From: an uncultured virus (IMG/VR IMGVR_UViG_3300001605_000024)
Lineage: Duplodnaviria; Heunggongvirae; Uroviricota; Caudoviricetes
DNA: 64,000 nucleotides
Direction: 5' to 3' (one strand)
IMG/VR virus record: IMGVR_UViG_3300001605_000024
Span: 1 to 64,000 of that record
This document shows positions 2,596 through 48,897 of the stretch, piece after piece (within the stretch, counting starts at the first letter, position 1; every line of letters begins with the position of its first letter). The position numbers were made by a program, and so were the translations under genes. The notes under the pieces are model-generated. The model searched no databases and was not told the DNA's origin. It was given only the letters and a program-made list of their open reading frames with translations.

Positions 2596-2855
2596 TTCCT
2601 TATATAAATACTTCAACCACCCCAACTTCAGTTATACGTGAGTTTAGTTCTGAAGTAGATCCAATGGAACTTATATGGCATCAGGATAAAGAAGACCGTA
2701 CAATTGAAATATTAGAAGGAGAGGGTTGGCAATTTCAAAGAGATAACGAATTACCTTTGGCGCTCCAAAAAGGAGATATTATATTTATACCGGAATTTCA
2801 AGTACATAGAGTAATAAAAGGTAATACTGATTTAAAAATTAAAATAACAAAATAA
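2592..2855 (+). CDS. Small cupin-like protein
   Basis: WHQD...LEGEGW...GDIIFIP...HRVIKG fits the two cupin motifs; ATGA overlap with the upstream gene. Confidence 0.6.
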   Translation: MIPYINTSTTPTSVIREFSSEVDPMELIWHQDKEDRTIEILEGEGWQFQRDNELPLALQKGDIIFIPEFQVHRVIKGNTDLKIKITK

Positions 2856-3242
2856 TGGCAAAAGAAATACTAAGTGAAGAATTCCAAAGAATGCAAAAAT
2901 TGGCGGGATTAATAAATGAGCAGCAACTTGAATTAGATTTTGATCCCAATGCTATCAAATTAACTCCAGAGCAGAAAGAAGAATTTGATGAAGAAATAAA
3001 TGATTTTATTTATACCACAAATTGGGATTTTGCTTATAAACAATCTGGAAATATTTTAGCTAAGATTCTCACAGATTATAAAGCTAAAAGCTGGAAAGAT
3101 GTTCAAGAATATGGGTATAATCCTAAAGAAGTTAGAGATTTGGGTAGAAAACTAGCTGAAGAATTTTATGACAGTTAATAACAAAATAATGGCAAAAGAA
3201 ATACTAAGTGAAGAATTCCAAAAAATGCAAAAATTAGCAGGA
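2843..3242 (+). repeat. 66-bp direct repeat (2843-2908 and 3177-3242) covering the translation-initiation region and 18 leader codons
   Basis: aataacaaaataATGGCAAAAGAAATACTAAGTGAAGAATTCCAAA(G/A)AATGCAAAAATT(G/A)GC(G/A)GGA, 3 mismatches. Confidence 0.95.
2855..3178 (+). CDS. Putative head-internal protein with EEFQRMQKLAGL leader
   Basis: Leader shared with 3189, 48367 and the scaffold C-terminus. Confidence 0.6.
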   Translation: MAKEILSEEFQRMQKLAGLINEQQLELDFDPNAIKLTPEQKEEFDEEINDFIYTTNWDFAYKQSGNILAKILTDYKAKSWKDVQEYGYNPKEVRDLGRKLAEEFYDS

Positions 3243-3422
3243 ATTCAATTAAACGAAAGAATAAGTTTTGAGGCTATTGAAAGAATGGAAGGTTTAGCAA
3301 ATACGCAAGACTTAGCTTCTCTACAAGTCAAACTTCGTATACTATCCTCAGATTGGATGCAAGAGGGATTTGAGAAAGAAGACATTATAGACTACTTAGC
3401 ATATTTAGTAGACAATATTTAA
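3189..3422 (+). CDS. Putative head-internal protein with EEFQKMQKLAGI leader
   Basis: Start at 3189 is supported by the duplicated initiation region. Confidence 0.6.
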   Translation: MAKEILSEEFQKMQKLAGIQLNERISFEAIERMEGLANTQDLASLQVKLRILSSDWMQEGFEKEDIIDYLAYLVDNI

Positions 3423-3479
3423 TACAAACATTCAGACCGATTCATAGCCAGTCGTCCTTAACCGGAAAAAACTTATCGG

Positions 3480-3518
3480 AGCTGTGGCCCATTTATTTGG
3501 AGCCGCAGCTTTCTTTTT
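3480..3518 (+). terminator. Intrinsic terminator overlapping a promoter-like element
   Basis: AGCTGTGGC (3480-3488) pairs with GCCGCAGCT (3502-3510) and is followed by TTCTTTTT; TTTG 3496-N20-TATATTCA 3520. Confidence 0.75.
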
Positions 3519-3546
3519 ATATATTCACTAAGTAATTTAATATAAT

Positions 3547-4845: not shown

Positions 4846-4910
4846 ATATTAAAAAAACTTCTTTCCCTGCTAGTTTGGCCTCTCCGGAGGCCTTACTTAA
4901 TTTCATAAAT

Positions 4911-5204: not shown

Positions 5205-5260
5205 GTTTGGCCTCTCCGGAGGCCTTACTTATCTTTAGGTATTAAATAAAAATAAATGTT

Positions 5261-6439
5261 ATGTCTAAAAAGCAAAATCTAGTTGCACTCAATGTTAATG
5301 AACTTAGAGAGTTCTTAACCCACATCATCGAGAATAATAGAGTGATCCAATCCCAAGGAAAATCACCGGTTTCAATTGAAGTAATTGGTGATTCCGGTAT
5401 TGGAAAAACATCTTCTATTATCCAATTGGCTAAGGAATTGGAATTGAGTTTTGTTAAGCTTAACTTATCTCAAATTGAAGAAATTGGAGATTTAGTAGGT
5501 TTCCCAATTCGCCAGTTTGAAATGAGTATGGATGATATCAAAACTTGGGTTGATGAACATGCGGTTGATGAATACAGAAAATTAGGATACAGATCCACAG
5601 GCAAAAATCAGATGAGTTATTGCCCACCAGAATGGATTAGTAATAAGGAAAATGGTGGGATATTGTTATTGGATGATTGGAATAGAGCTGATATCCGATT
5701 CATTCAAGCTGTTATGGAATTAATTGATAGACAACAGTATATTAGTTGGAGTCTGCCTAAAGATTGGCATATTATTTTAACTGCTAATCCTGATAATGGT
5801 GATTATTTAGTCTCTAGTATTGATAACGCCCAAAAAACACGATTTATCTCTATCCAACTGAAATATGATATTGACTGTTGGGCTAAATGGGCTGAAGAAA
5901 ATCAAATTGATGGTAGATGTATTAACTTTATGTTATTACATCCTGAACTAGTTACTAAGGAAGTTAACAGTAGAAGTGTATCAATGTTTTTTAATTCAAT
6001 TTCATCACTTAAGAGTTTTGAAACTTCACTTCCTCTTATTCAGATGATTGGAGAAGGGTCAGTAGGTCCTGAATTTAGTTCTATGTTTACTATGTTCATT
6101 AATAATAAACTAGACAAAATGATTTCTCCTCAAAATATTATGGAACAAGATGAGAAATATGTTTTAAATACTTTAAAATCAATTGTGGGTAAAGATGATA
6201 AGTATAGAGCAGATCTAGCCTCAACTTTATCAACCCGAATTATTAACTATTTGGATATTTTCTCTAAAAGTAATCCTGTTGAAAAATCTATTATTGATCG
6301 AATTTCAACCCTAGTTAATGAAAAAATATTTACCAATGATATTTGTTATAACATGATTAGATCCATTTATAATAATAATCCTAATAAATTTAAAACCATG
6401 ATGATGGATAAAAATTTAGTGGCGTATATTATGAAGTAA
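5261..6439 (+). CDS. MoxR-type AAA+ ATPase
   Basis: Walker A GDSGIGKT, GDLVGFP, Walker B variant LLLDDWNRA, sensor-1 TANP, and AQKTRF Arg finger. Confidence 0.85.
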   Translation: MSKKQNLVALNVNELREFLTHIIENNRVIQSQGKSPVSIEVIGDSGIGKTSSIIQLAKELELSFVKLNLSQIEEIGDLVGFPIRQFEMSMDDIKTWVDEHAVDEYRKLGYRSTGKNQMSYCPPEWISNKENGGILLLDDWNRADIRFIQAVMELIDRQQYISWSLPKDWHIILTANPDNGDYLVSSIDNAQKTRFISIQLKYDIDCWAKWAEENQIDGRCINFMLLHPELVTKEVNSRSVSMFFNSISSLKSFETSLPLIQMIGEGSVGPEFSSMFTMFINNKLDKMISPQNIMEQDEKYVLNTLKSIVGKDDKYRADLASTLSTRIINYLDIFSKSNPVEKSIIDRISTLVNEKIFTNDICYNMIRSIYNNNPNKFKTMMMDKNLVAYIMK

Positions 6440-6521
6440 AATCTTCAAATCTTCTCCTACCCTAAGTTTGGCCTCTCCGGAGGTCTTACTTATCTTTAGG
6501 TATTAAATAAAAATAAATGTT

Positions 6522-7622
6522 ATGAGCGTTATTAATAGTACTGTATTTCATCCTTATAGAAGTAGTTATCATCCACATGTTTCTCTATCCTTAGGTAGAA
6601 GTAAAGCTCGGATAGTTTTAACTCCTAAGGAACATCAAAAGATTATTTCATTCCTTAAAAATGCATTATCTACTTCCCATGAAATAAAATTTGGAAAAAA
6701 AGCATATTTAGGATCTTCTTCTAATCTCCCACGTCATAAAGTTAAAGAATATTTTACTAACAATAAAATCCATAAAACTTCTAGACTAGAACAAGCAAAT
6801 ACTATTATCATCAGTAAAAATAGTATTCAAGAACTTTATACATACTTAAAAAATTCCAAAGAAAATGATTATTTTATGCCATATGATAAAGTATATACTA
6901 TTAATGATAATAATGACAAAAAATATCTTCTTACTATTTGTAATTCCTCCTATATTTCACCTCCTTCATCTAATTTATCTTGGTATATAGCAATTAATCC
7001 CAATAACCAACCCCAAGTATCTTCAGAATTAGATAGATTTTTATCTAAATATCAATCTCAAACTTTATATTTAGATGTTAATTACTCTAAAAATTCTACA
7101 ATTATTGATACTTATAAAGTAATATGGGATCTACTTAAATATCCTAATATTAATATTATTTTTGATGAAGATATTCTTCCTATCTTTAACCAGAATGGGT
7201 TAGAATTTAATCAAGATTATATAACTACTTTAGATAGTATGTTTGAAAGTGAGGATCAAGAAAATATTAACCTTGCTTTGGAGATGTTGTCTAATATTGA
7301 TTTAGAAAAATATTCACTAGCTTTAGCTATGTTTTTAAATAAACATGCCGGTATATTTTATAAAGGTAGTGGTTTAAATATCTATCAAAATAGAAGTTTT
7401 AAAAGTTTTATAAAATATTTTGATTCTAAAAATATTAATTTTAGATCTCATTGGAAAAAATTCACTGTAGGATTATTACAAGAATATAAAGATGATCCTC
7501 AAAGTATAGAAATTATCCATAATTTTATTATTCAAAATATTAACACATATTTAAAATCTTCTAATGATATTAAGGCATCAAATTGGATTAAAATTGAAAA
7601 TTGTACTATAAAACTTAAATAA
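6522..7622 (+). CDS. Hypothetical protein in the MoxR/VWA cassette
   Basis: 366-aa ORF behind repeat copy 3; possible BRCT-like segment (weak). Confidence 0.6.
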   Translation: MSVINSTVFHPYRSSYHPHVSLSLGRSKARIVLTPKEHQKIISFLKNALSTSHEIKFGKKAYLGSSSNLPRHKVKEYFTNNKIHKTSRLEQANTIIISKNSIQELYTYLKNSKENDYFMPYDKVYTINDNNDKKYLLTICNSSYISPPSSNLSWYIAINPNNQPQVSSELDRFLSKYQSQTLYLDVNYSKNSTIIDTYKVIWDLLKYPNINIIFDEDILPIFNQNGLEFNQDYITTLDSMFESEDQENINLALEMLSNIDLEKYSLALAMFLNKHAGIFYKGSGLNIYQNRSFKSFIKYFDSKNINFRSHWKKFTVGLLQEYKDDPQSIEIIHNFIIQNINTYLKSSNDIKASNWIKIENCTIKLK

Positions 7623-7627
7623 AGGTT

Positions 7628-8800
7628 ATGGATAATATATATCAAGAAATAGCTAAGCAATCTAAATTATTGATGCTTAAAGAACCATTTTATGGTTTAG
7701 TTCTTATTTCTCTTAATAAAGAACTAACATCAGGAATTCAAACTGCTTGTGTTACACCTGATGGTATTAATGTTAAATTATGTGTTAATCCTCAATTTTG
7801 GTTAGAATTAGATGAAAAAACTAAATTGGCAGTTTTAAAACATGAATTGCTCCATATAGTATTTTTCCATCTATCTCATTTTGATAGATTTTCTAATAAA
7901 AAATTATACAATGTAGCCGCAGATTTAGAAATCAATCAATATATTGAATCTGAATATAAGGGAAAAAAATGGGAAGGATTAGAATATAATAAAGGTATAT
8001 TTGAAGAATTAAATCTTCTTCCAAAACAAGGAACTAAATATTACTATGATGCGCTTCAAACTGAAATGGATCAAAATCCTGATAGTGAAGTATCTCAATT
8101 TCTTAAAAATATAGAAAATGATTGTCATGATTTGTGGGATACTATGGAAGAAATGGGTGAAGCAGAACGTAAATTAATTCAAAAACAAATCGATCATCAA
8201 TTAAAAGAAATATCTTCTGAAGTATCTAAGAAAAATAGAGGACTAATCCCATCAGAATTAAGCCAATATATTAATTCTTTATTTGAAATAACTGAACCCT
8301 CATTAGATTGGAAATCATATTTAAGAAGATTTAGTTCCCAATCTATTAAAATTATAACCAAAAAAAGTAGACACAAACCTAATAAACGATTTTCAGATAA
8401 TCCTGCTCTAAAAATTAAACCTAAAAAAAATACTTTAGTTGCCATCGATACTTCAGGTTCCGTTTCTAACGAAGAATTAGTTGAATTTTTCAATGAAATA
8501 TACCATATTTACAAATCCGGTACCGATGTTACTATAATTGAATGTGACGCTAAAATACAGCGAATTTATGAATATAAAGGTAAATTAGAAGAATTATCAG
8601 TTAAAGGTAGAGGGGGAACTGATTTTGAACCTGTATTTAAATATTGGAGTGAGAATAACAAATACAATAATTTAATTTACCTTACAGATGGAGAATGTTC
8701 ATCTCCAGAAACAAAAATATTAAAACCTACTTTATGGGTTCATAGTTCCAAATCTGAAATAAACGAAACACTACCTGGTTCTAAAATAAAAATAAACTAA
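7628..8800 (+). CDS. Putative metallopeptidase plus VWA domain protein (DUF2201-type)
   Basis: HELLH (HExxH), NVAADLEINQ, MIDAS DTSGS, GRGGTDF, YLTDG. Confidence 0.85.
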   Translation: MDNIYQEIAKQSKLLMLKEPFYGLVLISLNKELTSGIQTACVTPDGINVKLCVNPQFWLELDEKTKLAVLKHELLHIVFFHLSHFDRFSNKKLYNVAADLEINQYIESEYKGKKWEGLEYNKGIFEELNLLPKQGTKYYYDALQTEMDQNPDSEVSQFLKNIENDCHDLWDTMEEMGEAERKLIQKQIDHQLKEISSEVSKKNRGLIPSELSQYINSLFEITEPSLDWKSYLRRFSSQSIKIITKKSRHKPNKRFSDNPALKIKPKKNTLVAIDTSGSVSNEELVEFFNEIYHIYKSGTDVTIIECDAKIQRIYEYKGKLEELSVKGRGGTDFEPVFKYWSENNKYNNLIYLTDGECSSPETKILKPTLWVHSSKSEINETLPGSKIKIN

Positions 8801-8802
8801 TC

Positions 8803-9492: not shown

Positions 9493-9531
9493 TTCATATT
9501 AAATACTCATATTTATCATAAAATAAATATA

Positions 9532-10583: not shown

Positions 10584-10584
10584 T

Positions 10585-11826: not shown

Positions 11827-12498
11827 ATGAAAAAATCTCAACTAAAAGACTACATCAAGGAAAATATTAAGGATATTTTAACTACTGAAGAGTCAAACGC
11901 TAAAGTAGGTAAAACTTATCTCTATACTAAAGGAGATGAAAGTATGGATATTGCTCCTGGAAAATATTTAATTTTGAAAAAATATAATCAAGATGGAGAA
12001 GATGTATATGATCTTAAATCTGAAACTGGAGATATCATATCTGTAACAAGTGATTATGTTCATGGGTCTGGCTACTGGAAAGGATCAGGATTAACTAATG
12101 AAGTAACAGTAGTAGATAAAAATACTAAACCTGAAGAAGTAAAAGATAAAGATCCTTTAACAGTTAAAACCGCAGTTGATTCCGCTAAAAAATCTAACAA
12201 ACCTGTTTCTATAGCTGAGGAAGATGATGAGGATGAGAAAGAGGATGATTGGTATAAATCAAAAGATGAAGATGGAGATAAAGACAAAGAACCATCCAAA
12301 TCTGAATTGAAAAAAGATGCTAAAGCCACAAAAAGTGTAGTTAAAGCTAAAGATGAACTAGCTATCCTTACTAGAGAAATGAAGTCTTTAGCTAAAAAAT
12401 ATAAAGAAGCTGAAGGTGCTGAAAAAGATAAAATTGTAGCTGATTTAAAAGCTAAAACCAAACTTAAAAAAGAACTAGAATCCATTCTAGACCGATAA
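11827..12498 (+). CDS. Lys/Glu-rich putative head-internal protein (MKKSQLKDYIKE leader)
   Basis: Charged, modular, with I/L-x-E sites; preceded by the late motif. Confidence 0.55.
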   Translation: MKKSQLKDYIKENIKDILTTEESNAKVGKTYLYTKGDESMDIAPGKYLILKKYNQDGEDVYDLKSETGDIISVTSDYVHGSGYWKGSGLTNEVTVVDKNTKPEEVKDKDPLTVKTAVDSAKKSNKPVSIAEEDDEDEKEDDWYKSKDEDGDKDKEPSKSELKKDAKATKSVVKAKDELAILTREMKSLAKKYKEAEGAEKDKIVADLKAKTKLKKELESILDR

Positions 12499-14119: not shown

Positions 14120-16021
14120 ATGGCAAATACCGGCTTATTTAGCAGATTGCAAAGATTATTCTCAACCGATGTAATCATCAGAAATGTTGGAGGGGATCAA
14201 ATAAGTATAATAGATACTAACAAAATCCAAACCAGCGGGGATATACAAACTAATTCCCTTATGGATAGATATAGTAGAATACACTCTACTAACCCCAGTT
14301 CATTATATGGTTCTCAATTTAATTTTAATTACAAATATCTAAGACCTCAACTATATTCTGAATATGATGTTATGGATCAGGATGCTATTATAGCATCTGC
14401 TCTTGATATTATAGCGGATGAATGTACTTTAAAGAACGATATGGGAGAAGTATTATCTATACGTTCTTCTAATGAAAATATACAAAAAATTCTATACAAT
14501 CTATTTTATGATGTGTTAAATATAGAATTTAATTTATGGGCTTGGATTAGACAAATGGCTAAATATGGAGATTTTTTTCTTAAACTAGAAATAGCCGAAA
14601 AGTATGGAGTATATAATGTCATACCTTATACTGCCTTTCATATTGAAAGATTAGAAGGTTTTAATCGAGAGAATCTATCTGAAGTAAAATTTAAATATTC
14701 TCCTGATGGTACCGCAAATACTAACTCTGGTATGTATTCAGTTACAGGGTTAGGAAATGATCAAACTGGGGGAATTATGTTTGACAATTATGAGATGGCT
14801 CATTTTAGATTATTAGGGGATACTAATTATCTTCCTTATGGTCGTTCTTATATTGAACCCGCTCGTAAATTGTTTAAACAATATACTTTAATGGAAGACG
14901 CAATGTTAATCCATAGAATAGCTAGAGCTCCTGAAAAACGTATATTTTATGTAAATGTGGGTTCTATTCCTCCAAATGAAGTAGATGCATTTATGCAAAA
15001 GACTATTTCAAATATGAAACGTACTCCTTATGTTGATAAACAAACTGGAGACTATAATTTGAAATATAACATGCAAAACATGATGGAGGATTTCTATATC
15101 CCTATTCGTGGTAATGATACTACAACTAAAATTGATACTACTAAAGGATTGGATTATGATGGTATTAAAGATGTTGAATATTTAAGAGATAAATTATTTG
15201 CAGCACTTAAAGTACCTAAAGCATTCTTAGGGTATGATGAAAATATAGAAGGTAAAGCAACATTAGCAGCCGAAGATATTAGATTTGCTCGTACTATTGA
15301 ACGTTTACAGCGAATAGTAGTATCAGAACTTAATAAAATTGCACTTGTACATTTATACTCCCAGGGTTATAGAGATGAGGGTTTAACTAATTTTGAGTTA
15401 TCAATGCAAACTCCTTCTATTATCTTTGAACAAGAGAAAATAGAATTAATGAAATCTAAAGCAGAATTAGCATCAACTCTAATAGAACAAAAACTATTAC
15501 CTACAGATTGGATTTATGATAACATATTTCATTTATCTGAAGATCAATATGATGAATATAGAGATCTAATTAAAGAGGATGCTAAACGTAATTTTAGAAT
15601 AGAACAAATAGAAAATGAAGGAAATGATCCAATAGAAACTGGTAAATCTTATGGTACTCCTCACGATTTAGCTTCTCTATATGGTACTGGAAGAACCCAT
15701 TCAAACCCCGCTAATGTTCCTGATGGTTATGATAGTGATAATCCTGTAGGAAGACCTAAAAAATCTATCACTAATATAAATAAACAAGGTGGTAATTTTG
15801 GAAAAGATCGTTTAGGTGTTAAAAGAATGAAAGACACTGATAAAAATGACTCTTCAAACAGTAGAACAGATACTAATAAAAGTGGTATGGCTCTTGAAAA
15901 TGCTCATGTAACTTTCATGAAGAATAAAGATATCTTTAATAAAATACCTACAAAGAAGTTAATATTTGAGGCTGATAGAGATAATACTTCATTACTAGAT
16001 GAAAAACAATTAAAAGAATAA
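14120..16021 (+). CDS. Portal protein (T4 gp20-like)
   Basis: LMEDAMLIHRIARAPEKRIFYVNVG, MMEDFYIP, DVEYLRDKLFAALKVP. Confidence 0.95.
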   Translation: MANTGLFSRLQRLFSTDVIIRNVGGDQISIIDTNKIQTSGDIQTNSLMDRYSRIHSTNPSSLYGSQFNFNYKYLRPQLYSEYDVMDQDAIIASALDIIADECTLKNDMGEVLSIRSSNENIQKILYNLFYDVLNIEFNLWAWIRQMAKYGDFFLKLEIAEKYGVYNVIPYTAFHIERLEGFNRENLSEVKFKYSPDGTANTNSGMYSVTGLGNDQTGGIMFDNYEMAHFRLLGDTNYLPYGRSYIEPARKLFKQYTLMEDAMLIHRIARAPEKRIFYVNVGSIPPNEVDAFMQKTISNMKRTPYVDKQTGDYNLKYNMQNMMEDFYIPIRGNDTTTKIDTTKGLDYDGIKDVEYLRDKLFAALKVPKAFLGYDENIEGKATLAAEDIRFARTIERLQRIVVSELNKIALVHLYSQGYRDEGLTNFELSMQTPSIIFEQEKIELMKSKAELASTLIEQKLLPTDWIYDNIFHLSEDQYDEYRDLIKEDAKRNFRIEQIENEGNDPIETGKSYGTPHDLASLYGTGRTHSNPANVPDGYDSDNPVGRPKKSITNINKQGGNFGKDRLGVKRMKDTDKNDSSNSRTDTNKSGMALENAHVTFMKNKDIFNKIPTKKLIFEADRDNTSLLDEKQLKE

Positions 16022-16058: not shown

Positions 16059-16925
16059 ATGAAAATCAAACATAGCAAATTTCGTAATACTGGAATTCTA
16101 TTTGAATTGTTAGTACGTCAAGTAACTGTAGACACTCTAAAAGGAGTAGACTCTCCCGCTATCGATATCATGAAAAAATATTTTGTGAAATCTGAATTAG
16201 GGAAAGAATATAAATTATATGAATCTCTTTTAAAATCTAAAGTTTTAAATGAGGATAGAGCTAATACTATAGTTAGTACTATTTTAGAGTCTTCTAAGAA
16301 TTTGAATAAAAGTTCTTTAAAGCGACAAAAATATAATTTAATTAAAGAAATTAAAGATCATTATGATCTTGATATTTTCTTTGGTATTAAAATTAAAAAC
16401 TATAAAGAACTAGCTTCTATATATACTTTAATTGAAGGATACAATAGTACTTCTTACATCACACCTAGTCAAATGGTAGATTGTAAAATTACATTATTAG
16501 AATTTTTAACTAATCAAAATGTTGATTCTAGTGATAAGAGAGAAGATATATTAAAAGAATTCCAATCTTATGATAAAGATTTAAGAATTCTTACTTATAA
16601 AGTATTACTTGAAAAATTTAATGAGAAATATAATTCTATATCTCCTGAACAAAAACAAATACTTAAAGAATATATAAACTCCGTTGATTCTGCTCCTGAT
16701 TTAAGAAACTTTTATAATTCTAGAATACAAGAATTAAAACATACATTAAAATCAGAATCTAAAACCATCAAAAATCAAGCTACTCAAATTAAAATATCAG
16801 AAATCAGTAAATATTTAACTGAACTAGATAAAAATTCTAAAGTTGATGACTCTCATCTTATAGATTTATTACAATATCATGAGTTAATCCAAGAAATCAG
16901 ATTAGCAAATGGGGTATCGATATAA
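16059..16925 (+). CDS. Conserved head-module hypothetical protein
   Basis: KHSKFRNTGILFELLVRQ; lies between portal and protease; ATATTTATA at 16032. Confidence 0.65.
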   Translation: MKIKHSKFRNTGILFELLVRQVTVDTLKGVDSPAIDIMKKYFVKSELGKEYKLYESLLKSKVLNEDRANTIVSTILESSKNLNKSSLKRQKYNLIKEIKDHYDLDIFFGIKIKNYKELASIYTLIEGYNSTSYITPSQMVDCKITLLEFLTNQNVDSSDKREDILKEFQSYDKDLRILTYKVLLEKFNEKYNSISPEQKQILKEYINSVDSAPDLRNFYNSRIQELKHTLKSESKTIKNQATQIKISEISKYLTELDKNSKVDDSHLIDLLQYHELIQEIRLANGVSI

Positions 16926-17191: not shown

Positions 17192-17437
17192 ATGTATAAG
17201 TATAGATTAAAAGAACAAGAAGATGAAAAAGCAAAAAAATTCCATGAGGAACGTATTATAGCTTTTGATTCTCTTGAATCCCAACTTGAAGATCTAAAAA
17301 AATTACTACGTCAAGGTAAAATTGAAACTATAAAATATTATAGAGAAAATCCTGATAGTTACGCGGTAGTAAAAGGAACAGATTTAATTAATGATTATAT
17401 AAAAGATATTAAAATTTTATTAAAAGGAGAAGAATGA
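17192..17437 (+). CDS. Small head-module protein
   Basis: MYKYRLKE leader; coupled to the next gene. Confidence 0.55.
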   Translation: MYKYRLKEQEDEKAKKFHEERIIAFDSLESQLEDLKKLLRQGKIETIKYYRENPDSYAVVKGTDLINDYIKDIKILLKGEE

Positions 17438-18939
17438 AGACTCTACAAGAACAATACAATCTAATTAAAGAAGGAAAAGGCCATAAAGGTATATTTCTTA
17501 CTGAAGCTAAGAAGCAATTCCCCGCTATGCTTACTAATCCTATGGGATTTGATGAAGCAACTAAAATATTAAAAACTAGAGGAGTTATTTCTGAAAACTA
17601 TGTTGACTTAAAACCTATCAACACAATTGAAGCTTCTTCAAAATCTCCTTGGGAAACTAAGTTTGCTAAATTTTTAGCTGAGGAAGTTAAAGTAGAAGAG
17701 AAAAAACCCGCTAAAGAAGTAGAGGAAATACAATCCCATAATTACGATTATAAAGACAAATCAAATCTAGATAACCAAATCGGTCAAGAAGTACTTAATG
17801 GTATTTATTTTGAAGCTAAAGAAAATCCAGATAAATCATTGGACGAAATTCGTAAAATGGTATCTAAAAACTTAGCTAAAGATGGGCAGCATTATATGAA
17901 AAATGCGGCTTTCGGTGTTAAAGGATTAGGATATAAAGAGACAGAAGTACAAGAAGTATCTGGAAAATATAAATCATCTGGTTATTCAGATAAACTAAAG
18001 AAAATGGTTAAAGAATCTTTAGTTAAAGAAGTTAACTCATTTAATGAAGATGAAATTTTCTTCTTATGGGATGATATTGTAGATGATAATAGAGAAGGAA
18101 TTTCACATAGTAATTTCTCTAGTAAGGGAAAAGATGGACATGCTTTTATATTTGATCCTGATTCTCCTAATTTCGATCATTTTATAGAAGTTGCAAAACG
18201 AATGATGAGTGACATGGGTATTAATTACCAATTCATGGGTAAAGAAAATTTACAGATTTATACTTCATCAATGAACGAAAATAGCTTTGAAGATAAAATG
18301 GCTCAACTTAGAGCAATGAAAGATCAAGCTAGAATGGGTCAAGCTCCATCTCCAAAAGTAGATGAGAAAAAACAAAGATTACAGCAAAAACTAAATGCTC
18401 TTAAAAGAGCCTACTTTGATTTAATTTCAGACATGGAAAAAGAATCAGATACAACATTTGCTTTTTCAGGTGATTGGTACCAAGAACAACTAGATGATCT
18501 AGAAAATTCAATTGGTGATATTGAGAAAAAAATTCAATCTATAAACGAAAACATTATTGAGGTTGAAACTGTAGTCACAAATGAGGCCGAAGAAATTGAA
18601 CCAAAACCTGAAAAGAAAAAAATTAAAAAAGAATCTTTAGATGCTGACTTGGCTGAAATTGACACCCAAGCTAACATTGTAGCTATGGAAGCTAAATTAG
18701 ATAAAATCAGCGAAATGATTTCCACTAAAATGGAACGTTTAAATATGATTGAAGAAGATTCTAATCTAGCTGAACTTGTAGATAAAGGTAAAATGAAATC
18801 CATGCAAAGAGAAATTAAAATCTTAGAAAAACGTAAAGCTAAGATGGATAAAATCTATGAAAAAGCAACAGGTAAAGCCTATACTAAAGAAATGGTAGAT
18901 GAGACCATGGAACAAGACTTAGATATGAACGATGAGTAA
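17434..18939 (+). CDS. Putative prohead core protein (coiled-coil, many x-x-E sites)
   Basis: Glu/Lys-rich; LIKE, FLTE, VISE, FLAE, LVKE, SINE; immediately upstream of the protease. Confidence 0.55.
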   Translation: MKTLQEQYNLIKEGKGHKGIFLTEAKKQFPAMLTNPMGFDEATKILKTRGVISENYVDLKPINTIEASSKSPWETKFAKFLAEEVKVEEKKPAKEVEEIQSHNYDYKDKSNLDNQIGQEVLNGIYFEAKENPDKSLDEIRKMVSKNLAKDGQHYMKNAAFGVKGLGYKETEVQEVSGKYKSSGYSDKLKKMVKESLVKEVNSFNEDEIFFLWDDIVDDNREGISHSNFSSKGKDGHAFIFDPDSPNFDHFIEVAKRMMSDMGINYQFMGKENLQIYTSSMNENSFEDKMAQLRAMKDQARMGQAPSPKVDEKKQRLQQKLNALKRAYFDLISDMEKESDTTFAFSGDWYQEQLDDLENSIGDIEKKIQSINENIIEVETVVTNEAEEIEPKPEKKKIKKESLDADLAEIDTQANIVAMEAKLDKISEMISTKMERLNMIEEDSNLAELVDKGKMKSMQREIKILEKRKAKMDKIYEKATGKAYTKEMVDETMEQDLDMNDE

Positions 18940-19552
18940 GCAACTACTTATAGAAACCTACCCCATTACAATATCTTCCTCCCTACTAACTGAAAATGTT
19001 GGTGGGGTAGGAAAACCTTTAATAGTGGAAGGTATATTAGCCACCGCCGAAATTAAAAACGGTAATGGTAGATACTATGCCCGAGATTTATGGGAAAGAG
19101 AAATGGCTAAATATACTGATACTATTAAACAAAGAAGAGCAATGGGTGAGTTAGATCACCCTGAATCTCAAGTTATTAACTTAAAAAATGTTTCCCACCT
19201 AATAACGGAATATAGATGGGATGGGGATAATATAATAGGTAAAATTGAAGTACTTCCTACCCCCTCAGGCCAAATATTAGAGGCCTTAATTAGAAGAAAT
19301 GTAACCTTAGGTGTATCTTCTCGAGGTATGGGTTCATTAGAACAAAGAGGTAATGTAATGGAAGTACAAGATGATTTCGAGTTACTAACCTTTGATTTTG
19401 TATCAACCCCATCTAATCCTGGTTCTTACATGTATCCAATTCGTGAAAATTTAAATGAAGGATTAAAACATTCTGACTATCGTGACTATTCTAAGGTAAA
19501 TAATATTATCTATGAAATATTATGTTCTAAAGGTAGTTGTCCTATTTTTTGA
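18932..19552 (+). CDS. Prohead protease (T4 gp21-like)
   Basis: NGNGRYY, GELDHP, NVSH, GVSSRGMGS, DFVSTPS. Confidence 0.95.
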   Translation: MSKQLLIETYPITISSSLLTENVGGVGKPLIVEGILATAEIKNGNGRYYARDLWEREMAKYTDTIKQRRAMGELDHPESQVINLKNVSHLITEYRWDGDNIIGKIEVLPTPSGQILEALIRRNVTLGVSSRGMGSLEQRGNVMEVQDDFELLTFDFVSTPSNPGSYMYPIRENLNEGLKHSDYRDYSKVNNIIYEILCSKGSCPIF

Positions 19553-20509: not shown

Positions 20510-21541
20510 ATGACAAACAGAGACTTGCTTAAAGAAGCAATTGCTGATGCTAAAGCTGTGAAAGAAACTGCTATCGCTAATGCCAAAGCTGCTTTAGAAG
20601 AAGCATTTACTCCACATCTAAAATCGATGTTGGCCGCTAAATTAGAAGAATTAGACAAAGACGAAGACGTTGAAGAAGCTATGTATTCTAAAGAAGAAGA
20701 AGACATGATGGAAGGATTTGAAGTAAATGAGGAAAAGGATGAAATCGAAGAAGAATTCGATCTAAATGAAATCCTTGCGGAACTTGAAGAAGGTGAAGAC
20801 AACGAAGAAATGTCTGAAGAAATTGAAGTATCTGAAGAAGAAACTATGGCTGAAGCTGATGAAGAAGCCGGTGAAATGGAAGATGAAGAAATTGATTTAG
20901 AAGATATGTCTGAAGATGATCTTAAATCTTTTATCGAGGATGTAATCGCGGACATGGTATCTTCAGGTGAATTAGAAGCTGGAGAAGAATTTGAATCCGA
21001 AATGGGTGGAGAAGAAATGGAAGCTGAAGAAGAAATGGGTGATATGGAAGAATTAGAAGAAATGGATGAAGTAAGTTGGAATGAAAAAACCAACCCAACA
21101 AGAGGAGCTACTATGGGAGAAAAAGATCCTAAAAAAGTAGGCCAAACTACTTCTTCTTACGCTATTAATGAGGATGAATTTAAAAATGCATTAACACAAA
21201 TTAAGGAACTTAAAAAAGAACTTTATGAAGTTAATCTTTTAAATGCAAGACTTCTTTATACTAATAAAATCTTCAAATCCAAAAATCTCAACGAAGAACA
21301 AAAAGTTAAAGTATTAAAAGCTTTTGACAAAGTAACAAGTGTAAAAGAAGCTAAATTAGTATTTGAGACTTTAAATGAGGGTATGGTAGCTAGATCTATT
21401 AAAACCCCATCGGTAAATACAATTAAAGGAAGTGCTTCTAAAGCTATGGGTGTTATTAAAGAAAATATACAACCTATTGTAGAAGTAGATCCAATGGTAG
21501 CTAGATGGCAAAAACTAGCAGGTATTAATAAAGAAATTTAA
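20510..21541 (+). CDS. Prohead scaffold protein (T4 gp22-like)
   Basis: Extremely acidic and coiled-coil; directly upstream of the major capsid gene; ends ARWQKLAGINKEI. Confidence 0.85.
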   Translation: MTNRDLLKEAIADAKAVKETAIANAKAALEEAFTPHLKSMLAAKLEELDKDEDVEEAMYSKEEEDMMEGFEVNEEKDEIEEEFDLNEILAELEEGEDNEEMSEEIEVSEEETMAEADEEAGEMEDEEIDLEDMSEDDLKSFIEDVIADMVSSGELEAGEEFESEMGGEEMEAEEEMGDMEELEEMDEVSWNEKTNPTRGATMGEKDPKKVGQTTSSYAINEDEFKNALTQIKELKKELYEVNLLNARLLYTNKIFKSKNLNEEQKVKVLKAFDKVTSVKEAKLVFETLNEGMVARSIKTPSVNTIKGSASKAMGVIKENIQPIVEVDPMVARWQKLAGINKEI

Positions 21542-21569: not shown

Positions 21570-23198
21570 ATGAGTTTACAATCTCTTTTAGAAAGCGCAA
21601 ACCCATACCACTCTTTACAGAGTGATGCCGCTAGATTAGCTAGCAAATGGGAAAAAACAGGATTGCTAGAAGGTTTGAAGGGTACGCATAAAAACAATAT
21701 GAGTATAATCCTTGAAAGCCAAGCTAAGCAATTAGTAGTAGAAGCATCTCAAACAGGTGGAGGTACTGCTTCAACAGGTACATTCACAGCTGGAGTAGGT
21801 GAACAATGGGNAGGAGTAGCTCTTCCATTAGTAAGAAAAGTATTTGGTCAAATTGCAGCGAAAGAATTCGTTTCAGTTCAACCAATGAATTTACCTTCTG
21901 GTCTAGTATTCTATCTTGACTTCCAGTACGGTAATGATAAGGCTCCATTTGCTGCTGGTAGTTCTTTATACGGAGCTGAAGGTGGAAATGCTCCATTTGG
22001 TAACACTAATTCTGGTGGTTTTTATGGTGCTGGAAGATTTGGATATTCTATAAACAATACTTCTTCAGCTGTAACTGCTACTCAAGCTACTGCCTCTTGG
22101 TCAGACTTGAATTTTGACTCTGACTTCTCTGCTTCTGCAGTTGCAGGTGAGTACAAAGTAGTAACTGTAGACTTGTCTGGTAAAAATGCTGACTTGGCTG
22201 GTGCTAGAGGATTTATCCTATCTGGTTCTAACTTGACAGTTGATGAAAACTTGCCTCAATTTACTTCTGTAAGTGGTAATAGTGTATCTTTTGTAATTAG
22301 CTCTTCTGATGCAACTTCTCAAGCTGCTACTGGAGTAGCCTATACTTTGGCTTTCCAATTACAGCCAACTGATAAAAACAGAGGTGATTTTGAAGATGGA
22401 AACACTGCTCTAAACAGCAATAACAACCCAATTTCAATCCCTGAAATCAACGTACAGATGAAATCATCTGCTATTGTTGCTAAAACAAGAAAATTGAAAG
22501 CAGTATGGACTCCTGAGTTTGCTCAAGATCTTAATGCTTATCATGCTCTTGATGCTGAGGCTGAATTAACTTCTATCCTTTCTGAGTATATTTCTCTTGA
22601 AATTGACCTAGAAATTCTAGACATGTTGATGGATGCTGCTTCTGCAGGTACTGAAGTATGGTCAGCAGTTAACAATAGATCTGTTGTTGACAATGGAGCT
22701 AATGGAGTAATTTCTGATCTTGGATTCTACAATAGTCAAGGACAGTGGTTCCAGACTCTTGGAACTAAAATCCAAAAATTAAGTAATATCATTCACCAGA
22801 AAACTCTTAGAGGTGGTGCAAATTTCATGGTATTATCTCCAACTGTTTCTACAATCATCGAATCAATCCCAGGATTTGCTGGTGATGTTGATGGTGATGT
22901 TGAAAAATCAACTTATGCTTTCGGAGTTCAGAAAGTTGGTGCTTTAGGTGGTGGTAAGATTAAGGTTTACAAAAACCCTTACATGTTAGAAAACCAAATT
23001 TTGTTAGGATTTAGAGGAACTCAATTCCTTGAGTCTGGTGCTGTATTTGCTCCATACATTCCTTTAATCATGACTCCATTAGTATACGATCCAGATACCT
23101 TTACTCCAAGAAAAGGTCTATTGACTCGTTACGCTAAGAAAATCGTAAGACCTGAGTTTTATGGTATTATTAAAGTTGAAGGATTAAATACCCTTTAA
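21570..23198 (+). CDS. Major capsid protein (T4 gp23-like)
   Basis: VSVQPMNLPSGLVFYL, AKTRKLKAVWTPEFAQDLNAYH, FAPYIPL, PRKGLLTRYA; one ambiguous base at 21811. Confidence 0.97.
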   Translation: MSLQSLLESANPYHSLQSDAARLASKWEKTGLLEGLKGTHKNNMSIILESQAKQLVVEASQTGGGTASTGTFTAGVGEQWXGVALPLVRKVFGQIAAKEFVSVQPMNLPSGLVFYLDFQYGNDKAPFAAGSSLYGAEGGNAPFGNTNSGGFYGAGRFGYSINNTSSAVTATQATASWSDLNFDSDFSASAVAGEYKVVTVDLSGKNADLAGARGFILSGSNLTVDENLPQFTSVSGNSVSFVISSSDATSQAATGVAYTLAFQLQPTDKNRGDFEDGNTALNSNNNPISIPEINVQMKSSAIVAKTRKLKAVWTPEFAQDLNAYHALDAEAELTSILSEYISLEIDLEILDMLMDAASAGTEVWSAVNNRSVVDNGANGVISDLGFYNSQGQWFQTLGTKIQKLSNIIHQKTLRGGANFMVLSPTVSTIIESIPGFAGDVDGDVEKSTYAFGVQKVGALGGGKIKVYKNPYMLENQILLGFRGTQFLESGAVFAPYIPLIMTPLVYDPDTFTPRKGLLTRYAKKIVRPEFYGIIKVEGLNTL

Positions 23199-31575: not shown

Positions 31576-31586
31576 CTTACACAAAC

Positions 31587-31931
31587 ATGATTTTTGGAAA
31601 AATTAACCCAGTACTTAGTATGGTTACACAAGACAGCCTATTTAATCCTACCGCTGAATTTATTACAGGTTCTTATATTACAGCTATGGCCACTCCCTAT
31701 CCATTAGGCGCCAATCAAGTGAACTTTAGAGTATCATATGGTAATTGTGAATTTAAAGATGGAGAAGTAGTAAATTTCAAAGCAATTCATCAGGACAGCG
31801 TTACCTTATCTGGTGAAGATATCGAAAGCTGGGGAACAGATGATGCTGTTATCTTAGATATTATTACTGAAAAACAAGGTACTGAAATTGTAGAAGTAGT
31901 ATCGGGTAGTGTAGACGGATTTAGATTCTAA
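31587..31931 (+). CDS. Hypothetical protein
   Basis: 114-aa ORF inside the modification cluster. Confidence 0.6.
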   Translation: MIFGKINPVLSMVTQDSLFNPTAEFITGSYITAMATPYPLGANQVNFRVSYGNCEFKDGEVVNFKAIHQDSVTLSGEDIESWGTDDAVILDIITEKQGTEIVEVVSGSVDGFRF

Positions 31932-31970
31932 TTTGGAATTATAAAATTAATATGTTACATTATAATAGTT

Positions 31971-32795: not shown

Positions 32796-32802
32796 GTAAA
32801 TT

Positions 32803-33765: not shown

Positions 33766-34208
33766 TTATAGTATTATTTGGTCAACCCCATTGTGGAAAA
33801 TCCACACTAGCTAAATCTTTAGGATATCACCTCTTTGCTGAAAACATTGATGGAGATAATTTAAGAGATATATTCCAAAATAAAGATTACAGTCGTGAAG
33901 GACGTATTAGAAATCTCAATAGAGCTAGTGATATCGCCCATTATATAAATCAACAAAATTTAGAAAATGTTATATTATCCTTAGTATACCCTTATAAAGA
34001 AACCAGAGAATATCTAAACCAACTAACCCCAGATGTACGTTGGGTATATTTAACTTATAAAGGAAAACGAGGTAGAGAAAAATTCCATGTAGAGGATTTT
34101 GAAGTTCCTGAAAATGAGCAATTTCTAGGTTTAGATACCTCAACATTATCAATAATAGAATGTACTAATAAAATTTTAAAATATGTGGGATACCAAGATT
34201 CACGTTAA
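33762..34208 (+). CDS. cysC: Adenylylsulfate (APS) kinase, compact
   Basis: GQPHCGKSTLA, IDGDNLR, YS.EGR.RN, VYPY...R, FE.PE. Confidence 0.8.
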   Translation: MIIVLFGQPHCGKSTLAKSLGYHLFAENIDGDNLRDIFQNKDYSREGRIRNLNRASDIAHYINQQNLENVILSLVYPYKETREYLNQLTPDVRWVYLTYKGKRGREKFHVEDFEVPENEQFLGLDTSTLSIIECTNKILKYVGYQDSR

Positions 34209-34563
34209 ATCATCATTACCTAAAAAAGACACACAGTGGTCTTTGTTTATAGGACGTTGGCAGCCCTTACATGAAGGACATAAAGCCTTATTTCGGCAAG
34301 TAATAAATGAGGGAGGAAAAGTTTGTGTCGCTATTAGAGATGTTGAAATAGACAAAAACAATCCCTATTCTCCACATGATATTATACTTAATATTTCTAA
34401 CCAAATGCAAGAGGAAATACAATCCGGTAAACTCAAAATTATTACCATTCCTGACATATGTTCTGTAGAATTTGGTAGAGGAGTAGGATATGACATTATA
34501 GAACATATTCCTCCCCAAGAGATAGCTGAAATATCTGCGACCAAAATACGTAATGGTAAATAA
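34183..34563 (+). CDS. Small HIGH-family nucleotidyltransferase
   Basis: FIGRWQPLHEGH, FGRGVGY, ISATKIR. Confidence 0.75.
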   Translation: MWDTKIHVKSSLPKKDTQWSLFIGRWQPLHEGHKALFRQVINEGGKVCVAIRDVEIDKNNPYSPHDIILNISNQMQEEIQSGKLKIITIPDICSVEFGRGVGYDIIEHIPPQEIAEISATKIRNGK

Positions 34564-34771
34564 TAAAAGACACATAGCTAAAACCATTAGTTATAGAATA
34601 ATAAGTACAACTATAGGTTTTTTAGCTATGTGGTTAATTACTGGTTCTATTCAAATTAGTTCTGCTTTTAGTATAGTAGAGCTAGTTTGGAAACCTCTAC
34701 AATATTACTGTCATGAGCGAATTTGGTATAAATGGATTAAGTATGGAATAAAAAATGACAATTCTGTATAA
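34553..34771 (+). CDS. DUF2061-like small membrane protein
   Basis: KTISYRII.T...K...YY.HERIW. Confidence 0.75.
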   Translation: MVNNKRHIAKTISYRIISTTIGFLAMWLITGSIQISSAFSIVELVWKPLQYYCHERIWYKWIKYGIKNDNSV

Positions 34772-42083: not shown

Positions 42084-42088
42084 TATAA

Positions 42089-44074: not shown

Positions 44075-44076
44075 AT

Positions 44077-44379: not shown

Positions 44380-44382
44380 GTT

Positions 44383-47300: not shown

Positions 47301-47703
47301 CCCAATTATGAGTAAGGCCAAAACTGTTTTAAATCTAGGTCCTAATGACCTCTTTTCAGAAGAAATCCAAGAAAAAATGGCCGATTATATCCTTTTAGGT
47401 GAGCGTAAGGAACTAGGAAAATATTTAAAAGGAGCAAATAGTGGGAATATTTTTGAACTAGAACAAGCCATCCAAGAATTAGGACAAGAATTTGCCTCAA
47501 TGCCTATAATATATAATAAACAAAAACAAAAAATAGGAAATGTTGAAACCGGACAAGGGCAAAATGCTTATTATGGTGGAGAAGGAGCCAATCCTTATAA
47601 ATCTAAAATAAGTATAAAAGAAATAACCAGAATATTAGTTCAAACTCGTATAAACTATTCTAGCAAAGTTCCAATATTTATCCCCGCATATTATACCTCA
47701 TAA
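44383..47703 (+). CDS. Baseplate hub protein with a C-terminal lysozyme-like domain
   Basis: PPPGI, LRLGFTMMLEWGW, LDGISGI; C-terminal YES...GAGKYQ...F..E.QE; one N at 46442. Confidence 0.65.
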   Translation: MTGNIIGEEFDDFVRDQINIRQSNQFGGYKDILRTPEQLQYLNNRNAWVKLASSVSVLVDTITGVTLEDFISSKLKKINIPNPENYLGTQLAEKAVLFNSLSSYIPSSGSFGDFRAGISNDSSLWNNSAYGLGGVNYGLQPPPGIINVQVDSLNRGSIRKANITLKAHNKFQFDIIELLYLRLGFTMMLEWGWGKYLDNMGQLQDVRNTIIEDRWFKDSNTSQLDMLKIIEEMKLAYAGNYDGFFGKVSNFTWNFNPDGSYDISIDLITLGDVIESLKVNLSSDSSFREIKSSPEIQETQTVNLPGINDTKFKNLLETPIIKAATLNSLGFFLYEKIRNFPENSNYFTFKNIQSLKDTSITLGGEGFNVRGVASKVSYITSISDQYSYYIRLGELLSQLEIFVIPTVNNGSTSTLQLQIEKDIENNLISYFPNQISLDPRVCIFKPSLNTYGDITGIRNDLDLLSLEDYIQTEDTNNYQYGKLMNIYINFNFISELLLSNGGPDQTLSLYKFLQDLCNNINNSLGGVNKLEPVVKDDYLITIIDQTFSKINIKPKDITTLEIYGYNPNNSTSNFVKDIRFQSKITPQLASMISIGATAAGSSTRTTDGTAFSKWSEGLQDRFTQKITDPPGYTQYQTEKTKQETENQRDKLTKKFFTFLEPLDKSTGAGGRGGGSGRPPIKGTPTLXQVINYPGLKQGTIMTLEEFIPAAIEADKIRISKGEYFEDELKELTDSNFAAYLIFAFGGVSNKVSILDKNNKSRPLVVPSLPQTRYLEFDDTFISQGKYAYKNYINILNNERFQEEKTPSSEIGFIPLSFDLTLDGISGIKIYNKLNINNEFLPSNYPESLKFIITKVNHTISNNSWDTSLSTISIPVTKPYKFNISLNQSISPTSSTVESLTPIKELKGQLQPLKNIIGAYESNNKYDIANINSSGIRSNTRILNLSFRELEKFQKLSLNDGNRVFGAGKYQITPPIMSKAKTVLNLGPNDLFSEEIQEKMADYILLGERKELGKYLKGANSGNIFELEQAIQELGQEFASMPIIYNKQKQKIGNVETGQGQNAYYGGEGANPYKSKISIKEITRILVQTRINYSSKVPIFIPAYYTS

Positions 47704-47706
47704 TAA

Positions 47707-48306
47707 ATGTACTACCCAAAATCCCAAATAAAAACTAGTTTATATACCAATGGAGGAGAATTTGTTTTAAGAAGCAATTCTTCCTCCTATAAGGGATATT
47801 ATTATGAAACCTCTAATGAAAGATATTTTACAGGACAAAACCCCAACGAATCTCCTTCGTTTGAATTAATTAAAATAACTACTTCTTCTAATATTAATAT
47901 ACAATCAACTTCCTCAGAAAATAATTATTACCTGCTAGAAAAAGAATATACTAGGGCTGCACGTCTATCCTTCCCTCAATCTCCCCCTTCACCCCCTAAA
48001 CAATCCTATCCTCTACCTACTGAAAATGATTATAAATTAGGAGAATTTCAAAGATATTTTGTTAAAAAGGGTAATGAACCTAAATTTATAGAAATATCTA
48101 AAGAAGATTATCTTAAATACCTAAATCAAGACAGAGATGTAATGTTTGAGCTTTACACCCCAATTCAAATAAGTTGGATATTAACTGGAGATAAAGATCA
48201 AGTTTACAAAATAAACCAAAGCATAGTAGCTAGGATGGAACTTAAACAAAACCTACCAGGATTTACAAACTACTTTAAAAATAGATTTACCCAATTCTGC
48301 AAATAG
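47707..48306 (+). CDS. Conserved tail-module hypothetical protein
   Basis: MYYPKSQI...YT.GGEF...Y.GYY; GEFQRYF.KK; W.LTG. Confidence 0.6.
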   Translation: MYYPKSQIKTSLYTNGGEFVLRSNSSSYKGYYYETSNERYFTGQNPNESPSFELIKITTSSNINIQSTSSENNYYLLEKEYTRAARLSFPQSPPSPPKQSYPLPTENDYKLGEFQRYFVKKGNEPKFIEISKEDYLKYLNQDRDVMFELYTPIQISWILTGDKDQVYKINQSIVARMELKQNLPGFTNYFKNRFTQFCK

Positions 48307-48366
48307 GTTTGGCATTCCTAATCTTTTTTCTTATATTTATAACAAATATTTAACATTTACGCAAAC

Positions 48367-48897
48367 ATGGCAAAGCAAATATTAAATGAAGAATTCCTAA
48401 GAATGCGAAAATTAGCAGGATTGCTAAATGAAGAACAACTAGATTTTAATTCTGAACTAGATTCTTTCTTTAAAAGTAATCCGGTTAATGAAAAAAATAA
48501 ATATTATGTAGAGGATTTAGCTAAAAAACATATTGAAAATATAGCTAATCGTCCTTTAACTCCCCAAGAAAAATCCAAAATTACAAAAATATCAAACATT
48601 TATCGTAATAAGTATTATGATGAAAGATTTGAAACCAACTATAAAGAAGAAGAAGATTCAAGAAAAGCTCGTTACCAAAATAATTTTTTACCCCTAACAA
48701 CCGATAATGGGAGAGGAACTCCGGATAAAAAATATTATAAATATGCTATATCTTATAATGAATATGATAAAGATGGGGATTTAATAGGTACTTTTCATCA
48801 AGATCCTAAAAGTGGGTATACCAATTATAAATTAAAAGATGAATGGATTAACACCCCTGTTCCTAAAGATATTTTAGATAAATATTGGAGAAAATAA
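48367..48897 (+). CDS. Putative head-internal protein with EEFLRMRKLAGL leader
   Basis: Leader shared with 2855 and 3189; TTTG 48308-N20-TATATTTATA upstream. Confidence 0.6.
   Translation: MAKQILNEEFLRMRKLAGLLNEEQLDFNSELDSFFKSNPVNEKNKYYVEDLAKKHIENIANRPLTPQEKSKITKISNIYRNKYYDERFETNYKEEEDSRKARYQNNFLPLTTDNGRGTPDKKYYKYAISYNEYDKDGDLIGTFHQDPKSGYTNYKLKDEWINTPVPKDILDKYWRK

What the first reader, a model, noticed from the sequence alone, without database searches (positions are those of the whole stretch)
2843..48897. Portable leader that copies the scaffold C-terminus: a candidate capsid-loading system
Seen: three unrelated proteins start MAKEILSEEFQRMQKLAGLINE (2855), MAKEILSEEFQKMQKLAGIQLNE (3189) and MAKQILNEEFLRMRKLAGLLNE (48367). 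The scaffold ends MVARWQKLAGINKEI (21494-21541). The first two leaders are a 66-bp DNA duplication that includes the initiation region, which indicates recent grafting onto new cargo. Each leader ends in an L/I-N-E site. Known: scaffold C-termini bind coat protein in several phages; T4 internal proteins use a cleavable capsid-targeting sequence; gp21 cuts after L/I-x-E. Inference: a mobile scaffold-mimic tag that docks arbitrary cargo on the capsid inner wall, from which the protease releases it for ejection.
Basis: partly seen in the sequence, partly recalled or inferred. Interest (0 to 1): 0.85.

Follow-up and report, generated by a model that had tools for sequence, protein, structure and literature searches.

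The report
Swappable capsid-loading tags on phage proteins
An uncultured distant relative of phage T4 starts three unrelated small proteins with a clip-off tag that resembles the tail of its head-scaffold protein; the tag most likely loads changeable cargo into the virus head, but no experiment has shown this yet.

Summary
Confirmed. In this Far-T4-like phage (closest cultured relative: Flavobacterium phage immuto_2-6A), ORFs 2855, 3189 and 48367 begin with a 22-residue leader resembling the conserved scaffold tail. A model trained only on scaffold tails finds all three, and nothing in shuffles. The leader sits on 1,267 protein clusters, is conserved as protein, and is followed by I/L-x-E in 106 of 119 cases (control 6%). 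Added here: (1) two of the three cargos carry other leader types in relatives, joined at the same L-x-E, so this is leader exchange, not tagging of bare cargo; (2) one independent contig lacks exactly the 334-bp cassette between the two 66-bp repeats; (3) cargo bodies avoid I/L-x-E (0.71 of expectation) while core proteins are enriched (2.05), as expected if cargo meets the head protease and survives. Best reading: a cleavable prohead-targeting leader working like T4's CTS (0.75). Docking on the capsid wall at the scaffold's site is unshown (about 0.45); tags keep Met where their own scaffold has Trp. Not found in my literature searches. This scan noted the same tag earlier on other genomes. 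New variant of a known kind, testable in a cultured phage.

The parts
2855..2920 (+). Class A leader (scaffold-tail type), residues 1-22 of ORF 2855-3178; I/L-x-E at 6-8 and 20-22
2921..3178 (+). Cargo 1, 85 aa, acidic, no known family; both other homologues found also carry the class A leader
2843..2908 (+). 66-bp repeat, copy 1 (initiation region plus 18 codons)
   Evidence: 63 of 66 identical to copy 2
3177..3242 (+). 66-bp repeat, copy 2; a contig of run X7 joins 2842 to 3177, skipping the 334-bp cassette
3189..3257 (+). Class A leader, residues 1-23 of ORF 3189-3422; predicted helix 2-16
3258..3422 (+). Cargo 2, 54-aa three-helix domain; 16 of 21 aligned homologues carry an FDLKKYL-type or related leader instead
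48333..48340 (+). ATATTTAT, candidate late-promoter motif 34 nt before ORF 48367 (also at 377 and 2781)
   Evidence: promoter function inferred from its place before structural genes
48367..48432 (+). Class A leader, residues 1-22 of ORF 48367-48897; predicted helix 2-16
48433..48897 (+). Cargo 3, 154 aa, no known family or fold; 16 of 24 aligned homologues carry an LKQLIKEEI-type leader instead
20510..21541 (+). Putative head scaffold (acidic, between protease and capsid genes)
21476..21538 (+). Scaffold tail: I-V-E site followed by the conserved R-W-Q-K-L-A-G-I segment
   Evidence: motif ends the gene before the capsid gene in 79 of 79 loci (29 distinct 12-mers)
18932..19552 (+). gp21-type prohead protease
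   Evidence: Pfam Peptidase_S77; PDB 5JBL, E 4e-13
21570..23198 (+). gp23-type major capsid protein (one N in the DNA)
14120..16021 (+). gp20-type portal
16059..16925 (+). Conserved 288-aa gene after the portal, I/L-x-E 2.66-fold enriched: probable core protein
   Evidence: role inferred
17434..18939 (+). 501-aa gene before the protease, KTLQE-type start, I/L-x-E 1.69-fold enriched: probable core protein
   Evidence: role inferred
1719..2156 (+). Gene with class C leader (FDLRKYL..E); homologues carry class D
2158..2595 (+). Gene with class D leader (IKLxDIL.E); Pfam DUF6934 body
11827..12498 (+). Gene with class B leader (LKxxIKE), just before the terminase
55859..56611 (+). Gene with class D-like leader inside the replication module
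57581..58045 (+). Gene with class D leader between nrdB and nrdA

Best explanation
The leader is a cleavable address that brings a protein into the assembling prohead. It descends from the last ~20 residues of the head scaffold and now spreads on its own as the 5' end of small gene cassettes. Tagged proteins are made late, the leader helix binds a head-assembly partner (most simply the site the scaffold tail uses, on the capsid protein's inner face or N-terminal arm), the gp21-type protease cuts after the flanking I/L-x-E, and the freed small cargo stays in the head and, by analogy with T4 IPI and Alt, is probably delivered with the DNA. It is one of at least four interchangeable leader types; homology between leaders lets cassettes be exchanged, inserted or lost. 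Shown by sequence: portability, likeness to the scaffold tail, protein-level conservation, flanking sites, exchange, site avoidance in cargo. Inferred: late expression, binding partner, packaging, cleavage, ejection.
For: Scaffold tail motif in 79 of 79 loci; a tail-only matrix finds the leaders, 0 in shuffles. 1,267 clusters at 50% identity match the leader profile; 117 tagged bodies form 78 families. Codons of the invariant L-A-G are degenerate. I/L-x-E within 6 residues after the motif in 106 of 119 vs 86 of 1,422 control windows. I/L-x-E is enriched in scaffold, protease, capsid and two core genes (1.5-2.7x), so the protease probably has T4's specificity (L/I-X-E in PMC9026906, passages read). 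One body per family: 89 sites vs 125 expected, 0 of 500 shuffles as low; reversed motif 1.21x; untagged small early ORFs 1.39x; window non-virion proteins 1.08x. Leader exchange at L-x-E: 8 A vs 16 B of 24; 2 A, 16 C-type, 3 none of 21; 8 of 31 multi-member families mix classes. Tags also occur at C-termini (12) and internally (18) of 153. TATTTAT upstream of 46 of 118 tags (shuffle mean 5.7), 112 of 287 structural and 22 of 182 early genes. No class A leader among 510 labelled core genes. All 5 LAFG-type scaffolds occur with an LAFG-type tag, and a LANIIK scaffold with a LANIIK tag.
Against: No virion, cleavage or binding data exist for this phage or, in my searches, its cultured relatives. 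Tags do not track the scaffold's Trp in 8 of 8 such genomes; 3 of 8 LAFG-tag genomes have LAG scaffolds, and within their 13-row clade the association is weak (about p 0.07, my arithmetic); no column in the first 420 capsid residues co-segregates with LAFG scaffolds. Mel-JY01 and LR756508 have the scaffold motif but no tag. Cargo is mostly acidic (82%), unlike the near-neutral or basic T4 IPs. Of 150 top hits, two join the tag to RecA or superoxide-dismutase fragments, unexplained. Most tags were collected with a pattern for the tag, so counts per genome are biased upward. Homologues are not independent.
Confidence: 0.75

Rival explanations
1. Sub-case A of the best explanation: the leader docks in the same pocket of the major capsid protein as the scaffold tail, a true coat-binding mimic.
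For: The tail is the most conserved end of the scaffold, out to RM378. Precedent: 80alpha scaffold and SaPI1 CpmB bind the capsid with the same C-terminal 16 residues (PMC5644958, passages read); P22 scaffold C-terminal fragments load fused cargo (PMC9962691, passages read). Rare tail variants co-occur in tag and scaffold.
Against: The partner of the tail is unknown in any T4-like phage; the T4 core structure is unresolved (PMC9958956, passages read). Three unlike leader types replace it freely. No co-varying capsid column.
Confidence: 0.45
2. Sub-case B: the leader is packaged by binding the scaffolding core (scaffold itself, the 288-aa or 501-aa core proteins, portal or protease), as T4's CTS is thought to, not the shell.
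For: [quoted passage not shown] Interchangeable unlike leaders suggest several core sites. Two conserved protease-site-rich genes lie in the head module.
Against: Scaffold tails bind the coat where this was solved; T4's CTS does not resemble the gp22 tail, so the T4 route need not apply.
Confidence: 0.3
3. Tagged proteins are minor core fillers or protease substrates that are degraded or stay in the head; the motif recruits the protease and nothing is ejected.
For: Cargo is small and acidic like T4 gp67; a conserved acidic family stacks several leaders and sites.
Against: Bodies avoid I/L-x-E while core proteins are enriched; 78 unrelated families fit an arms race better than a structural role.
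Confidence: 0.12
4. The leader is a by-product of a mobile expression unit (late promoter, initiation region, first codons) with no protein function.
For: The recent duplication includes the initiation region; a contig shows cassette loss or gain at the repeat; leaders on one locus share somewhat more synonymous bases (189 of 271 vs 0.61).
Against: Residues are fixed while codons vary; tags occur at C-termini and internally; the downstream site is conserved; bodies avoid the site.
Confidence: 0.07

Closest known systems
Capsid targeting sequence (CTS) of T4 internal proteins IPI-III and Alt, removed by gp21 (PMC9026906, PMC3012670, PMC9958956; passages read)
   Same: Short conserved N-terminal leader on otherwise unrelated small proteins, ending in I/L-x-E, in a phage with gp20/gp21/gp23 homologues; hypervariable cargo set.
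   Different: No sequence likeness: the profile finds nothing in T4. T4's CTS does not resemble the gp22 tail, whereas this leader matches the scaffold tail. It also occurs at C-termini, internally and on both ends; at least four exchangeable leader types; cargo mostly acidic.
80alpha scaffolding protein and SaPI1 CpmB, shared C-terminal helix-and-hook (PMC5644958; passages read)
   Same: A second protein carries a copy of the scaffold's terminal helix.
   Different: CpmB is one satellite protein that changes capsid size and keeps the motif C-terminal; here the phage's own genes carry it, mostly N-terminal, cleavable, on many families. Binding is solved there, untested here.
Engineered P22 scaffold-fragment fusions (PMC9962691; passages read)
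   Same: A scaffold C-terminal piece loads arbitrary cargo into a procapsid.
   Different: Artificial, 65-160 residues, not removed by a phage protease.
Encapsulin cargo-loading peptides (recalled, no call)
   Same: Short terminal peptide that brings cargo to the inside of an HK97-fold shell.
   Different: Cellular compartment, no scaffold origin, no maturation cleavage or ejection.

Membership tests
T4-type capsid targeting sequence | Short leader shared by unrelated small proteins | tested here: met
T4-type capsid targeting sequence | Ends in a gp21 site (L/I-x-E), with a gp21 homologue in the genome | tested here: met
   106 of 119; protease; actual cleavage not measured
T4-type capsid targeting sequence | Sequence homology to the T4 CTS | tested here: not met
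   Leader profile has no match in T4; side-by-side comparison
T4-type capsid targeting sequence | Late expression | tested here: inconclusive
   Same upstream motif frequency as structural genes; no RNA data
T4-type capsid targeting sequence | Sufficient for packaging of a foreign protein; cargo ejected | not testable with these tools
   Needs fusion and virion assays
Scaffold-tail mimic (CpmB type) | Sequence likeness to the conserved scaffold C-terminus | tested here: met
Scaffold-tail mimic (CpmB type) | Co-variation with the cognate scaffold | tested here: inconclusive
   LAFG 5 of 5 scaffolds with tag but 3 of 8 tags without; Trp not tracked in 8 of 8
Scaffold-tail mimic (CpmB type) | Binds the capsid protein at the scaffold's site | not testable with these tools
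   Needs structure or binding assay

The most novel reading that the evidence does not exclude
Immuto-like phages run a natural multi-address loading system: a ~20-residue coat-binding mimic taken from the scaffold, plus three other leaders, head gene cassettes that recombine at the leaders, so that more than a thousand unknown protein families are packed in virions, released by the head protease and injected. Tagged genes would then be a ready list of ejected anti-defence and host-takeover proteins against Bacteroidota, and the tag would reveal the unresolved scaffold-coat contact of T4-like heads.
Probability: 0.35. Interest if true: 0.82.

Novelty: new variant of a known kind. Interest (0 to 1): 0.6.

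Why it matters
How proteins are selected for T4-type heads is still open: the core structure and its contacts are unresolved (PMC9958956). A leader derived from the scaffold tail gives a direct handle on that contact. It also marks, from sequence alone, 1,267 clusters of almost wholly unannotated proteins as candidate virion-delivered effectors, and a 22-residue self-cleaving loading tag would be a useful tool. The cultured phage immuto_2-6A carries two tagged genes (gp41, gp188), so the test is cheap.

Tried and rejected
Complex prediction of a capsid protein with a leader (matched pair from relative G007, capsid 85% identical to the window's, alignments of 54 and 89 rows): verdict 'no answer', score 0.00; no evidence either way, and the scaffold tail itself was not folded with the capsid. 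Fold searches gave nothing usable: cargo 3 no Foldseek match at E 0.001 in PDB or BFVD, best Z 7.4; ORF 3189 best Z 7.2 to archaeal-virus coat domains, within the range for helical bundles. ESM Atlas: no hit at 0.9 for ORFs 3189 and 2855. The leader profile has no PDB match below E 0.1 and only weak PHROG hits. Tagged proteins: 0 of 114 and 4 of 150 reach a Pfam cut-off (window ORFs 30 of 79); PHROGs, NCBIfam and PADLOC on 147 gave scattered single hits. Capsid co-variation with LAFG: none. 'Copied from the present scaffold': rejected (16-19 of 24 bases, Met vs Trp). Restricting the site to I/L-[NSTK]-E shows no depletion in bodies (1.21x). Literature: searches listed no paper describing this motif; the Far-T4 paper PMC4360716 has no occurrence of scaffold, leader or motif (term search). 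Subscription papers, the immuto isolation paper and supplements were not seen.
Full report
Context. The window is the first 64 kb of a 77,267-bp virus record. It holds a T4-like head module (terminase, gp20 portal, gp21 protease, gp23 capsid), a contractile tail and a replication module. The closest cultured relatives are Flavobacterium phage immuto_2-6A (portal 59.7%, capsid 57.7%) and Mel-JY01, then RM378. ORF 2855 is also on record on a 163,066-bp contig.

Observation. The three leaders and the scaffold tail are as described and are the only 4 matches of [KRQE]LAG[ILV] in the record. The repeat is 2843-2908 vs 3177-3242, 63 of 66 bases. In 79 of 79 loci with a capsid N-terminus the upstream gene ends in the motif (redundant set, 29 distinct 12-mers). 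A matrix from scaffold tails alone gave 7 hits among 2,556 ORFs, including all three window leaders, and 0 in 3 shuffles. RM378's scaffold ends similarly.

Spread. From all loci I collected 153 distinct tags: 122 N-terminal, 18 internal, 12 C-terminal, 1 unplaced. A profile of 89 leaders matches 1,267 clusters at 50% identity. 117 tagged bodies form 78 families, 61 of them singletons; median 98 aa; 82% net acidic. Whole-record search: immuto 2 tags plus scaffold; Mel-JY01 and LR756508 scaffold only; T4 and RM378 none. Most genomes were chosen because they had a tag; of the 5 reached by scaffold or portal homology, 4 have one. Within 10 kb of the head genes tags are rare.

Protein-level signal. 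The invariant L-A-G uses all common codons. I/L-x-E follows within 6 residues in 106 of 119 N-terminal tags against 86 of 1,422 control windows; the search pattern did not fix this site, although 10 sites use the motif's last I/L. T4 gp21 cuts after L/I-X-E (PMC9026906, passages), and the window protease matches its structure. The site is enriched in scaffold (1.54x), the two genes after the portal (2.66x, 1.69x), protease (2.31x) and capsid (1.8x) across relatives. Cargo bodies, one per family and without their first 12 residues, hold 89 sites against 125 expected (0 of 500 shuffles as low), while the reversed motif is 1.21x, 35 untagged small early immuto ORFs 1.39x, 26 window non-virion proteins 1.08x and 4 window core proteins 2.05x. 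This is what proteins that meet the head protease and must survive it would show; it is indirect.

Leader exchange. Searching with bodies only: cargo 3 has this leader in 8 and an LKQLIKEEI-type leader in 16 of 24 aligned sequences, joined at I-L-x-E-E (P0001, identical in the body, left out). Cargo 2 has this leader in 2, an FDLKKYL type in 11, a related EDFKKYL type in 5 and none in 3 of 21, joined at L-N/G-E. Both other homologues of cargo 1 carry class A. So ORF 3189 most likely took the leader of its neighbour in place of another one. In 21 genomes, 8 of 31 multi-member families mix leader classes (classes B-D are my regular expressions, with 14 hits among 510 labelled core genes, none of class A). 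One contig (depth 4.4) of run X7, a study other than the best holder, joins 2842 to 3177 and so lacks ORF 2855: the repeat bounds a cassette that is gained or lost. Single contig, direction unknown.

Expression. TATTTAT lies within 70 nt upstream of 46 of 118 tags (shuffles 5.7), 112 of 287 structural and 22 of 182 early genes; in the window at 48333, 2781 and 377, and before immuto gp41, which sits among early genes. That it is the late promoter is inferred.

Does it mimic the scaffold functionally? For: all 5 LAFG-type scaffolds occur with an LAFG-type tag, and G028 has LANIIK in both. Against: 3 of 8 LAFG-tag genomes have LAG scaffolds; all lie in one 13-row clade (about p 0.07 within it; G029 and G016 not in the tree); no capsid column follows; Trp tails are never copied into tags (8 of 8). 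The tag therefore descends from a scaffold tail and now spreads by itself. Its partner is untested.

Mechanism. Late synthesis (inferred), binding of the leader helix (helix 2-16 predicted at pLDDT about 60) to a head-assembly site (inferred; capsid 0.45, core 0.3), cleavage after I/L-x-E (inferred from specificity and conservation), retention and probable ejection (by analogy with IPI, PMC3012670, passages). Overall 0.75. Cargo function is unknown: no family or fold for the three window cargos; among relatives there are sub-threshold hints of an ADP-ribosyltransferase and a PBECR nuclease.

Comparison. It works like T4's CTS but is not a member by sequence. It shares the scaffold-tail principle with CpmB (PMC5644958, passages). 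My ten literature searches listed no description of the motif; subscription papers and supplements were not seen. Earlier notes of this scan describe the same or like tags on other genomes (145 notes match the words); they are unchecked and add no support. Verdict: real, widespread, new variant of a known kind; interest 0.6.

Noticed in passing
L393 (T4 gp22 start) and window 20510-20540: T4's CTS resembles the N-terminus of gp22 (..EQLIAE vs ..QEFIAE), and here the class D leader resembles the scaffold's own start (DLLKE). Other leader types may copy other ends of core proteins.
   Followed up: no
window 377-3422: A probable late operon of leader-headed cassettes (400, 1025, 1719, 2158, 2855, 3189) with a small cupin gene at 2592; homologues of 400 and 1025 are in most relatives with changing leaders.
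   Followed up: partly
P0050, P0057, P0070, L325:14791-17532: 870-1,000-aa proteins with the tag near both ends and hydrophobic stretches, recalling T4 Alt's two propeptides; candidates for large ejection proteins.
   Followed up: no
L340-L387: A conserved acidic gene family with stacked leaders (LAFG tag, site, class B-like helix, site) and a conserved C-terminal helical domain; its leader differs by lineage. Not in the 77-kb record.
   Followed up: partly
P0088, P0107: Tag joined to a RecA fragment and to a superoxide-dismutase fragment; chimeric assemblies or real fusions.
   Followed up: no
window 29423-34771: Glycosyltransferase, FkbM methyltransferase, sulfotransferase, APS kinase and nucleotidyltransferase genes between tail-fibre and sheath genes: a possible virion or host-surface modification pathway.
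   Followed up: no
window 5261-8800: MoxR-like AAA ATPase, a 366-aa unknown and a VWA/metallopeptidase gene; the first two share identical upstream sequence.
   Followed up: no
window 19603-20277, 50271-50927, 59929-60573: Free-standing endonuclease genes, two with their own ATATTTAT motif; one splits the head operon between protease and scaffold.
   Followed up: no
window 55859-56611 and L193:205-672: Leader-bearing proteins whose bodies look like ADP-ribosyltransferase folds by eye; only a sub-threshold Pfam hit for L193, none for 55859.
   Followed up: no
window 26711-27400: ORF 26711 ends early and about 470 bp pass before ORF 27400; a tail-fibre gene may be broken or mis-assembled here.
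   Followed up: no
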